Shown: positions 22,036 to 23,209 of the stretch, piece after piece
Layout: each line of letters starts with the position of its first letter
Position numbering within the stretch: the stretch's first letter is position 1
Assembly: GCF_003334355.1 (NCBI RefSeq)
Contig: NZ_QOWP01000045.1
Source of the DNA: Escherichia coli
GTDB lineage: Bacteria; Pseudomonadota; Gammaproteobacteria; Enterobacterales; Enterobacteriaceae
DNA: 23,209 nucleotides
Direction: 5' to 3' (one strand)
The notes under the pieces: generated by a model
Told to the model about the DNA's origin: nothing
The model's input: the letters and a program-made list of their open reading frames with translations, nothing else
Database searches by the model: none
Program-made: the position numbers and the translations under genes

Positions 22036-22110
22036 GTGGGATACCAGAAGATTATGTTATTTATTATTCAGTAACTTTATCCACAATGATGGGCGTAATT
22101 AATTAAATTC

Positions 22111-22323
22111 ATGGTATGTTTTTTAATTTATATCACTCTCCTTTTCATTCAGCGTGTCTATTTCATTTCCTCTGAAAAGAAACTAACTATTCACATTGTG
22201 CAGATGTTTCAGTTGTTATCACAGGCATTCTATAATCTCAAAATGTTTTTAATGATGGATATGCTCGGAGTTGGAGATGCAATTAATATTAATACAAATA
22301 AAAATATCCGGCAGGTATGCTAA
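22111..22323 (+). CDS. yncH: Hypothetical small protein in AT-rich DNA, 70 aa
   Basis: ORF 22111..22323 matches annotated YncH of E. coli K-12 from memory. It lies in very AT-rich sequence with no obvious RBS and unusual composition, so coding status is uncertain. Confidence 0.4.
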   Translation: MVCFLIYITLLFIQRVYFISSEKKLTIHIVQMFQLLSQAFYNLKMFLMMDMLGVGDAININTNKNIRQVC

Positions 22324-23143
22324 AAGGATAAATGGCGTTCTCTGTATTTATTCGCAATTATCTGTAGGACAAATATGGAGAGCTTGATGAGTCAGAGCTA
22401 AAACAGCAATTGATTAATAAACATGTTGATTTATTCAAGAAAATGGATGTATTTTAAATGTTGATTCTTAATATAACCTAATCAATAGATTATCAAGTGA
22501 GAGCTACACATTATTGGAGGGGCAGGGGAAAACACCATTTTGGGAACAATGCATCAGGTACTCTTACCACTGAAGCAAGATCATCCGGCACCAGGTGGTG
22601 GTGCAGTGCTTTGGAAATGGTCCCCTCGGGGGAGTTGTCATTATTTTCTATGCTATTTGCTTATTATATTCATCAGGTGAATTTAATAAATTCCTAATTT
22701 GAAATATCCACTATTAAGCTAGTGTTTAACGACGTTAAGATGGCAATGTGCAGATCATGTTATCAGGGTGGGGCGGTAGCGTATATTCCTTATACAAACC
22801 ATCATTCATTTCAATGATTGTTATTGAATTATTTATTGTTGTGAATAAAAAGACATTATGAATATTGGTTTGACTTTGCATATCAGGTTTTTTATTACTC
22901 GCTGTAATGTACGAGCCTGTCGTGAATAACGTCGAGAACCCATCCGTTGCGTTTGTGATTATTTTGTTGACTAAACAGACACCCGTTTCTCTGAAGTAAA
23001 ATCCCAGACTAAATCATCACATAACCATGACATTTTTCTGATATTCCCCGGTAACGCCAGATGTCGACTCGCTTATCTCATCCGCCCGACATGTTGTACA
23101 TGCAATATGTGCGGATTATTATTCATTTTCACGGAGGTTGCTA

Positions 23144-23209
23144 TGTCAACCGGATTACGTTTCACACTGGAAGTGGACGGCCTGCCGCCGGATGCTTTTG
23201 CGGTGGTTT
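23144..23209 (+). CDS. vgrG: 5' end (22 codons) of a VgrG-like type VI secretion spike protein; truncated by the window edge
   Basis: ATG at 23144 preceded by GGAGG (23133-23137) with 6-nt spacing. Translation MSTGLRFTLEVDGLPPDAFAVV matches the conserved VgrG N-terminal pattern (...F.LEV.GL....F.VV...). Only 66 nt are visible. Confidence 0.5.

What the first reader, a model, noticed from the sequence alone, without database searches (positions are those of the whole stretch)
22036..23209. AT-rich island ending at a VgrG-like gene start: possible edge of a T6SS vgrG/Rhs effector island
After yncG the sequence changes abruptly to AT-rich DNA of about 1.1 kb with almost no credible ORFs (only the doubtful 70 aa yncH and scattered short frames). 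It then ends at a well-formed RBS plus ATG whose first 22 codons (MSTGLRFTLEVDGLPPDAFAVV) look like a VgrG N-terminus. VgrG genes commonly head orphan effector islands with Rhs/PAAR toxins and immunity genes, and AT-rich flanks suggest horizontally acquired, H-NS-silenced DNA. No other T6SS genes are in the window, so this would be an orphan spike-effector module whose cargo lies beyond the 3' edge.
Basis: partly seen in the sequence, partly recalled or inferred. Interest (0 to 1): 0.6.

Follow-up and report, generated by a model that had tools for sequence, protein, structure and literature searches.

The report
Left end of E. coli RhsE island

Summary
Window 22036-23142 is 35.4% G+C against 50.5% for the rest of the window, lower than any other stretch of the same length. 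A GGAGG ribosome-binding site and an ATG follow; the ATG is at 23143, not 23144. The window is E. coli chromosome, ydcO to yncH.

The finding region is 100% identical to REL606, EC14 and BL21. In REL606 and EC14 the ORF runs on as a 702-708 aa VgrG with the Phage_GPD, Phage_base_V and Gp5 trimerisation domains. It is followed by a 1407 aa Rhs core protein, YdcD, which I infer to be the immunity protein, and ISAs1 remnants, up to pptA. This is the classical RhsE element.

Lineages without the island lose homology at 22033, the yncG stop codon, so the compositional break is the island's left junction. About half of 5,426 complete E. coli genomes carry full-length vgrG DNA here. K-12 and BL21 carry internal deletions.

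There is no DUF4123 adaptor, and PAAR appears only as a short sub-threshold motif in Rhs. Published K-12 data place an H-NS site and a sigma-70 promoter in this spacer. Already known; low interest.

The parts
21418..22035 (+). yncG (glutathione S-transferase family), the last backbone gene before the island
   Evidence: 205 aa ORF. Annotated yncG in REL606, EC14 and K-12. G+C is 47.1%.
22034..22036 (.). Left junction of the RhsE island
   Evidence: Genomes without the island keep homology to query position 3034 of window 19000-23209, which is window 22033. In GN03139 a GGDEF gene starts right after yncG. Local BLAST places the EC14/GN03139 breakpoints at L003 35033 and 45190.
22036..23142 (.). 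AT-rich left end of the island (35.4% G+C)
   Evidence: 100% identical to REL606, EC14 and BL21. Covered at 80% or more in 3,539 of 5,426 complete E. coli genomes.
22111..22323 (+). yncH, a 70 aa DUF5445 ORF found only in Escherichia; whether it is translated is unresolved
   Evidence: 157 homologues, all at least 83% identical, all Escherichia or Shigella, with precomputed PF17520. No NCBIfam model matches. Of 15 variable sites among 7 alleles, 8 fall at codon positions 1-2. Two alleles carry frame-shifting indels near the 5' end and are annotated with upstream starts.
22324..22639 (.). Single-copy, unannotated non-coding segment specific to this locus, including a roughly 50% G+C patch at 22501-22650
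   Evidence: One place per genome in 3,576 genomes, with no annotated feature. No Rfam match. Folding z-score -0.53. A terminator-like hairpin lies at 22621-22633.
22640..23142 (+). vgrG upstream region (leader) that is shared with a second vgrG island
   Evidence: About 80% identical to the DNA upstream of a second orphan vgrG next to cusS in KO11FL, with indels not in multiples of three. Not shared upstream of the other vgrG genes recovered from other genera.
22760..22787 (+). Promoter-like site TTATCA-16-TATATT inside the best-conserved leader block
   Evidence: Consensus scan. Both hexamers are identical in the cusS-locus paralogue. This is a consensus match only; no transcription data were examined.
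22870..22898 (+). TTGACT-17-TATTAC, listed as the constitutive RpoD promoter of the K-12 yncH-rhsE spacer
   Evidence: PMC3946193 Table 3. Located in the window by regex. Not conserved in the cusS-locus paralogue, which has an 8-bp deletion there.
23076..23076 (.). Left breakpoint of the K-12 deletion that made rhsE a pseudogene
   Evidence: K-12 homology ends at window 23075. A 4.44 kb deletion removes the last 67 bp of the leader, all of vgrG and the rhs 5' part.
23134..23138 (+). Shine-Dalgarno sequence GGAGG
   Evidence: Read directly from the sequence. Conserved upstream of vgrG homologues in other genera, where homology starts at about -15.
23143..23209 (+). First 22 codons of vgrG (historically vgrE), cut by the window end
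   Evidence: Identical at nucleotide level to full-length vgrG genes of EC14 (702 aa) and REL606 (708 aa). These match TIGR03361, Pfam Phage_GPD, Phage_base_V and Gp5_trimer_C, and solved VgrG1 structures at 1e-96 to 1e-99.

Best explanation
Window 22034-23209 is the left end of the E. coli RhsE element. This is a roughly 10 kb variable island inserted between yncG and pptA.

The island reads: yncH, about 820 bp of AT-rich non-coding DNA, vgrG, an rhs core gene with an AT-rich toxin tip, ydcD, yncO, and decayed ISAs1 (H-repeat) copies.

Shown here:
- The junction position.
- The composition.
- The VgrG, Rhs and YdcD family assignments in near-identical genomes.
- The strain-to-strain variation at the site.

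Inferred from established T6SS biology:
- The VgrG trimer caps the Hcp tube of a type VI secretion system encoded elsewhere in the genome.
- The Rhs protein rides on the spike through its short N-terminal PAAR-like segment.
- Its C-terminal tip (DUF6973) is released after the DPxGL motif and acts as a toxin in the target cell.
- YdcD protects sibling cells.

The AT-rich upstream DNA carries the promoter or promoters. In K-12 it binds H-NS in vitro, so the module is probably silenced under laboratory conditions. In strains without a core T6SS (K-12 and B, according to PMC3032704) the module cannot fire and is decaying.
For: Composition break. 100% identity of 22036-23209 to REL606, EC14 and BL21. 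Gene order in REL606 and EC14.

VgrG: TIGR03361 624 bits against cutoff 186. Pfam Phage_GPD 1e-74, Phage_base_V 6e-15, Gp5_trimer_C 4e-26. PDB VgrG1 hits at 1e-96 to 1e-99.

Rhs: NF041261 RHS_core 2781 bits against cutoff 2000, YD repeats, DUF6531, and the RHS domain. The DPxGL motif is at residue 1254. The solved structures of the T6SS Rhs effectors Tse5 and P. protegens RhsA match at 3e-123 and 4e-87.

YdcD family at 215 bits; the gene overlaps the rhs 3' end.

Island-free lineages break at window 22033 and resume 52 bp before pptA.

2,770 of 5,426 genomes hold yncG to full-length vgrG as one contiguous piece.

The H-NS site and RpoD promoter in the K-12 spacer come from PMC3946193. The locus is listed as an rhs locus at b1455-b1461 in PMC3032704. 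EHEC rhsE is described as lying downstream of a vgrG in PMC7216683.
Against: Only 22 codons of vgrG are in the window, and no exact source genome was found; the best full-length match is 99.5%. BL21 has the same flank but a vgrG cut after about 113 codons.

Whether the source strain has a core T6SS is unknown.

PAAR is below threshold in Pfam (E = 0.28), although the residues P-A-A-R occur literally at positions 5-8 of Rhs.

The toxin activity of DUF6973 and the immunity role of YdcD are untested here.

H-NS binding is in vitro SELEX in K-12, not in vivo data for this strain.
Confidence: 0.9

Rival explanations
1. In the source strain the island is decayed. The ORF at 23143 would be a truncated vgrG fused to, or followed by, an rhs remnant as in BL21. 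The window edge would then be the start of a pseudogene and not a working spike gene.
For: BL21-type genomes are 100% identical over 22036-23209, yet vgrG ends after about 113 codons at a 2.4 kb deletion. Evenly spaced samples of the hit lists include 'VgrG/Pvc8 family' partial genes and RHS fusions.
Against: A K-12-type deletion is excluded, because the window keeps 23076-23209, which K-12 lacks. 2,770 genomes hold full-length vgrG DNA here. By my rough estimate from the sampled rows, about 2,950 keep the gene start. The closest genome overall, EC14, has the intact module.
Confidence: 0.08
2. The AT-rich tract is ordinary promoter-rich intergenic DNA of the core genome. On this reading its low G+C reflects only the absence of coding constraint, not horizontal acquisition.
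For: Other intergenic dips occur in the window, for example 39.5% at 12201-12600 and about 40% at 4801-5200 and 18201-18600.
Against: Those dips are 400 bp or shorter and less extreme. No other 1108-bp stretch falls below 42.1%. The tract is absent from about a third of E. coli genomes, with a breakpoint at the yncG stop codon. It is replaced there by a GGDEF plus sulfatase cassette, by a PAAR-VgrG-DUF4123 island, or by an ISAs1-associated deletion.
Confidence: 0.02
3. The 820 bp between yncH and vgrG hides an unannotated functional gene, either a small protein or an sRNA.
For: The segment is long for an intergenic region. The 340 bp next to vgrG varies at only 1.8% of sites among 7 alleles, against 8.1% in yncG. 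A terminator-like hairpin lies at 22621-22633. A RpoN SELEX peak maps near 22705 (PMC8743547).
Against: No Rfam match even at E = 10. Folding z-scores are -0.53, +0.10 and -0.20. No ORF over 66 aa and no family match. Indels between the two leader paralogues are not multiples of three. No sigma-54 consensus is present. RefSeq annotates nothing in K-12.
Confidence: 0.08

Closest known systems
RhsE element of E. coli (rhsE/ydcD/ydcC locus, b1455-b1461) with its upstream vgr gene, historically vgrE
   Same: Same chromosomal site between yncG/yncH and pptA. Same gene order of vgrG, rhs core, AT-rich tip, small ORF and H-repeat/ISAs1. The window's last 1174 bp are 99.9-100% identical to K-12, B and many wild strains. 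The locus is tabulated as an rhs locus in PMC3032704. Wang, Zhao and Hill 1998 (J Bacteriol 180:4102) is cited in PMC6363058; that paper is not held in the library, so its content rests on my own knowledge.
   Different: Nothing of substance. The window holds only the left 1.17 kb. K-12 itself lacks vgrG because of a 4.44 kb deletion starting at window 23076.
Second orphan vgrG-Eag(DcrB-related)-Rhs-Imm26 island next to cusS, seen in E. coli W/KO11FL
   Same: The first 66 nt of vgrG are identical, and about 500 bp of upstream DNA are roughly 80% identical. The overall logic of spike, Rhs toxin, immunity gene and ISAs1 is the same.
   Different: Different chromosomal site. It carries a chaperone gene between vgrG and rhs, a longer Rhs (1606 aa), extra orphan tips, and no yncH.
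   Same: An island of this type occupies the very same yncG 3' site in strain GN02323, with a 32.8% G+C spacer ahead of it.
   Different: The window's island has no DUF4123 adaptor and no separate PAAR gene. Its effector is an Rhs protein with only a short N-terminal PAAR-like motif.
Solved T6SS Rhs effectors and spikes (P. aeruginosa Tse5 8cp6, P. protegens RhsA 7q97, VgrG1 4mtk/7q5p)
   Same: Sequence matches to the Rhs cage and to the VgrG gp27/gp5 core at 3e-123, 4e-87 and 1e-96 to 1e-99. The abstracts of PMC8765631 and PMC8636562 describe spike-mounted Rhs toxins.
   Different: The toxin tip here is DUF6973, of unknown activity. No structure or assay exists for this protein in what I searched.

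Membership tests
T6SS spike protein VgrG/TssI | gp27-like hub domain (Phage_GPD) | tested here: met
   Pfam PF05954, E = 1.3e-74, residues 29-327 of the EC14 protein. The 5' 67 nt of its gene are identical to the window. The window alone holds only residues 1-22.
T6SS spike protein VgrG/TssI | gp5-like OB fold and beta-helix | tested here: met
   Phage_base_V 6.4e-15 (residues 384-450) and Gp5_trimer_C 4.4e-26 (residues 467-576).
T6SS spike protein VgrG/TssI | Score above the curated family cut-off | tested here: met
   TIGR03361 at 623.7 bits against 186.35, and TIGR01646 at 444.1 bits against 121.8.
T6SS spike protein VgrG/TssI | A core T6SS (TssA-M, Hcp) in the same genome to fire it | not testable with these tools
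   The source genome is unknown and none of these genes is in the window. PMC3032704 states that K-12 and B, which carry this locus, lack a T6SS.
Rhs element / T6SS Rhs effector | Rhs core with YD repeats, above the curated cut-off | tested here: met
   NF041261 at 2781 bits against 2000, with multiple RHS_repeat hits and the RHS domain at 1.7e-16, in the EC14 gene 66 bp downstream of vgrG. This gene lies outside the window.
Rhs element / T6SS Rhs effector | DPxGL core/tip boundary followed by a variable AT-rich tip and a small downstream ORF | tested here: met
   DPMGL at residue 1254. The tip plus ydcD is 33.9% G+C against 63.7% for the core. ydcD overlaps the rhs 3' end.
Rhs element / T6SS Rhs effector | Toxin activity of the tip and immunity by the downstream ORF | not testable with these tools
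   The tip matches only DUF6973 (6.4e-12). YdcD has no Pfam domain.
PAAR-containing effector | PAAR domain that caps the VgrG tip | tested here: inconclusive
   Pfam PAAR_motif E = 0.28 at residues 3-20. The residues P-A-A-R occur literally at positions 5-8.
DUF4123-adaptor or Eag-chaperone vgrG islands | Adaptor or chaperone gene between vgrG and the effector | tested here: not met
   Only a 66-bp spacer separates vgrG and rhs in EC14 and REL606. Such genes are present at the cusS locus and in GN02323.
H-NS-silenced horizontally acquired DNA | AT-rich relative to the genome and variably present among strains | tested here: met
   35.4% against 50.5% G+C. Absent with a sharp junction in about one third of genomes.
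H-NS-silenced horizontally acquired DNA | H-NS occupancy and derepression in an hns mutant | not testable with these tools
   The only evidence is published in vitro genomic SELEX in K-12, which marks the yncH-rhsE spacer as an H-NS site (PMC3946193).

The most novel reading that the evidence does not exclude
The roughly 500-bp AT-rich region upstream of vgrG (22640-23142) could be a dedicated cis-regulatory module that travels with orphan vgrG-rhs islands in E. coli.

It is shared at about 80% identity with the cusS-locus island. It contains a core with conserved -35 and -10 hexamers at 22760-22787. Near vgrG it is unusually invariant among alleles.

On this reading it would couple expression of orphan spike-effector cassettes to a specific signal through H-NS and an unknown antagonist, independently of the core T6SS cluster.
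Probability: 0.12. Interest if true: 0.35.

Novelty: already known. Interest (0 to 1): 0.12.

Why it matters
It matters mainly as a check on the first stage. A reader with no tools correctly recognised a VgrG start from 22 codons and correctly read a compositional break as an island edge.

Biologically this is the textbook RhsE locus, found in most E. coli. The analysis adds some bookkeeping detail:
- The island's left junction sits at the yncG stop codon.
- The yncG 3' site is occupied in at least four alternative ways in different lineages.
- About half of complete genomes keep full-length vgrG DNA there.
- The upstream half-kilobase is shared with one other orphan vgrG island.

None of this changes how T6SS cargo islands are understood.

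Tried and rejected
- Rfam, at gathering threshold on the whole window and at E up to 10 on 21900-23209: no match.
- RNA folding of the G+C-rich patch, the conserved leader block and the putative 5' UTR: z-scores -0.53, -0.20 and +0.10, so no sign of structure.
- Sigma-54 promoter search, prompted by a published RpoN SELEX peak near 22705: no GG-N10-GC site with a good consensus. The only hit with two or fewer mismatches overlaps the RBS and lacks the GG.
- Repeats in 21900-23209: only a 12-nt direct pair and a 15-nt AT-rich inverted pair, which look like chance.
- Small ORFs in the tract against NCBIfam: nothing.
- VgrG, Rhs, YdcD and YncH against PADLOC defence models: nothing.
- Exact 21-mer from the leader core against one genome per species: no hit. 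A degenerate pattern for the VgrG N-terminus found six loci in five other species (four other genera plus Escherichia albertii). Their similarity starts only about 15 nt before the ATG, so the leader is not shared with them.
- I considered the 37-nt leader core in GN02323 as a third independent copy and rejected it. It sits at the same locus beside an ISAs1 end, so it is more likely a relic of a former RhsE-type leader.
- My recollection that K-12 RhsE begins MSTGLRF... was wrong. K-12 lacks this start.
- Wang, Zhao and Hill 1998 (PMC107404) could not be read because it is not held.
- The first two literature searches, on 'RhsE/vgrE' and 'yncH', returned mostly unrelated acronyms.

Full report
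**What the window is.** BLAST against 5,426 complete E. coli genomes shows the window is E. coli chromosome running from ydcO to yncH. The best full-length match is strain EC14 at 99.5%, and no exact source genome was found. Annotation transferred from REL606 and EC14 lists ydcO, sutR, rlhA, hicAB, ydcR-V, patD, ortT, mnaT, curA, mcbR, pqqU, yncE, ansP, yncG and yncH.

**The observation.**
- Window 22036-23142 is 35.4% G+C. The preceding 22 kb is 50.5%.
- No other 1108-bp stretch falls below 42.1% (mean 50.5%, sd 2.7).
- The drop begins at the yncG stop codon.
- The tract is not uniform; 22501-22650 is about 50% G+C.
- The only ORFs of note are yncH (70 aa) and a 66 aa GTG frame. None matches a protein family model.
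- GGAGG lies at 23134-23138. The ATG follows at 23143, one base earlier than the finding states, and 22 codons remain before the window ends.

**What the ORF is.** The last 1174 bp of the window are 100% identical to REL606, EC14 and BL21. In EC14 and REL606 the ORF continues for 702 and 708 codons.
- The protein matches TIGR03361 (TssI/VgrG) at 624 bits against a cut-off of 186.
- Pfam gives Phage_GPD 1.3e-74, Phage_base_V 6.4e-15 and Gp5_trimer_C 4.4e-26.
- Solved VgrG1 spikes match at 1e-96 to 1e-99.

**What follows it.**
- A 1407 aa Rhs protein starts 66 bp downstream. It scores 2781 bits on NF041261 RHS_core against a cut-off of 2000 and carries DUF6531 and many YD repeats. The DPxGL boundary is at residue 1254.
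- Its tip is AT-rich (33.9% G+C) and matches only DUF6973.
- ydcD overlaps the rhs stop codon. It belongs to the YdcD family and has no Pfam domain.
- Next come yncO, two decayed ISAs1 (H-repeat) copies and pptA.
- There is no DUF4123 adaptor or Eag chaperone.
- PAAR is seen only as a literal P-A-A-R at Rhs residues 5-8, with a sub-threshold Pfam hit of E = 0.28.

This is the classical RhsE element. PMC3032704 tabulates it as the rhs locus at b1455-b1461. PMC7216683 notes that EHEC rhsE lies downstream of its own vgrG. Linkage of vgr genes to RhsE and RhsG goes back to Wang, Zhao and Hill 1998. That paper is cited in PMC6363058 but is not held in the library, so its content is from my own knowledge.

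**Where the island begins.** Many genomes keep homology only up to window 22033, the yncG stop codon.
- In GN03139, a GGDEF gene and an arylsulfatase gene (3.4 kb, 44% G+C) occupy the space up to pptA.
- In Ecol_743, homology stops earlier, at 21307. yncG is gone and an ISAs1 copy sits there.
- In GN02323, the same site holds a PAAR-VgrG-DUF4123 island.

So the compositional break is the true left junction of a roughly 10.15 kb island (EC14 locus L003 35034-45190). The yncG 3' site is a hotspot with at least four occupancy states.

**How common and how intact it is.**
- The finding region is covered at 80% or more in 3,539 of 5,426 genomes.
- yncG through full-length vgrG is contiguous in 2,770 genomes.
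- K-12 has a 4.44 kb deletion starting at window 23076. It removes the last 67 bp upstream, all of vgrG and the 5' part of rhs.
- BL21 has a 2.4 kb deletion after about codon 113 of vgrG.

The window keeps 23076-23209, so a K-12-type deletion is excluded. A BL21-type state cannot be excluded but is a minority.

**Anatomy of the AT-rich tract.**
- *yncH* is confined to Escherichia and Shigella: 157 hits, all at least 83% identical, with PF17520. Its substitution pattern is not clearly that of a constrained coding gene, since 8 of 15 variable sites fall at codon positions 1-2. Its status stays open.
- *22324-22639* is single-copy and unannotated.
- *From about 22640 to the ATG*, the DNA is roughly 80% identical to the region upstream of a second orphan vgrG island next to cusS in KO11FL. 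The indels are not multiples of three. This half-kilobase therefore belongs to the vgrG module and is non-coding.
- It is not shared upstream of the vgrG genes recovered from other genera. A leader 21-mer found nothing in one genome per species. The vgrG genes with the same N-terminus in Citrobacter, Yokenella, Pseudocitrobacter, Superficieibacter and E. albertii are similar only from about -15.
- The best-conserved block contains a promoter-like TTATCA-16-TATATT at 22760-22787.
- PMC3946193 lists TTGACT-17-TATTAC, which is window 22870-22898, as the constitutive RpoD promoter of the K-12 spacer and marks the spacer as an H-NS SELEX site.
- I found no RNA family, no stable structure, no sigma-54 consensus and no meaningful repeats.

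**Mechanism.** Shown here are the family assignments, the gene order, the junction and the population variation. The rest is inferred from established T6SS work, using the abstracts of PMC8765631, PMC8636562 and PMC4924876 and the structural matches to Tse5 and RhsA:
- The VgrG trimer tips the Hcp tube.
- Rhs mounts on it through its N-terminal segment.
- The tip is cleaved after DPxGL and acts in the target cell.
- YdcD neutralises it in siblings.
- Firing needs a core T6SS encoded elsewhere. PMC3032704 says K-12 and B have none, which fits the decay seen in those strains.

**Verdict.** The feature is already known, so interest is low. The only mildly open point is whether the shared upstream half-kilobase is a specific regulatory module.

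Noticed in passing
window 22034 (yncG 3' end); loci L006 17035-20406, L007 16306-16961, L019 9620-20985: The site just after yncG is occupied differently in different E. coli lineages. The four states seen are the RhsE island, a GGDEF plus arylsulfatase cassette, a PAAR-VgrG-DUF4123 double island, and an ISAs1-associated deletion that also removes yncG.
   Followed up: partly
window 22748-22784; L019 9823-9859; L007 16718-16822: The core of the vgrG leader survives as a 37-105 bp relic in genomes that lack the RhsE island. In both cases it is followed directly by an ISAs1 end (AAAGATYACG...) after the sequence ATCAGGG. This suggests an IS insertion into the leader followed by deletion.
   Followed up: partly
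L001 about 22080 (REL606 vgrG codons about 108-119); L005 13446: REL606 VgrG carries an 18-bp tandem duplication (NFRIFQ twice) that EC14 lacks. The BL21 2.4 kb deletion begins at that very spot.
   Followed up: no
window 22801-23142: Among 7 alleles, the 340 bp just upstream of vgrG vary at 1.8% of sites. This compares with 8.1% in the yncG coding region and 5-9% in the rest of the AT-rich tract. It could reflect constraint or recent recombination with vgrG.
   Followed up: no
window about 22705: A published RpoN holoenzyme SELEX peak (K-12 coordinate 1527534, PMC8743547) maps into the conserved leader block. No sigma-54 -24/-12 consensus is present there.
   Followed up: partly
window 22111-22323; L014 772-987; L015 3076-3321: Two divergent yncH alleles have frame-shifting indels near the 5' end and are annotated from upstream starts (71 and 81 aa). 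The ORF is therefore kept open in a different way in those strains.
   Followed up: partly
window 4801-5200, 12201-12600, 15001-16400, 18201-18600: Shorter G+C dips to about 0.40-0.44 occur elsewhere in the window. By transferred annotation they coincide with hicAB, the yncL/ortT small-toxin region, mcbR and the pqqU-yncE spacer.
   Followed up: no
L003 11393-13034, just upstream of window position 1 in EC14: In the closest genome, a decayed IS200/IS605 tnpA and an intact insQ (TnpB-family) gene lie immediately before ydcO, just outside the window.
   Followed up: no
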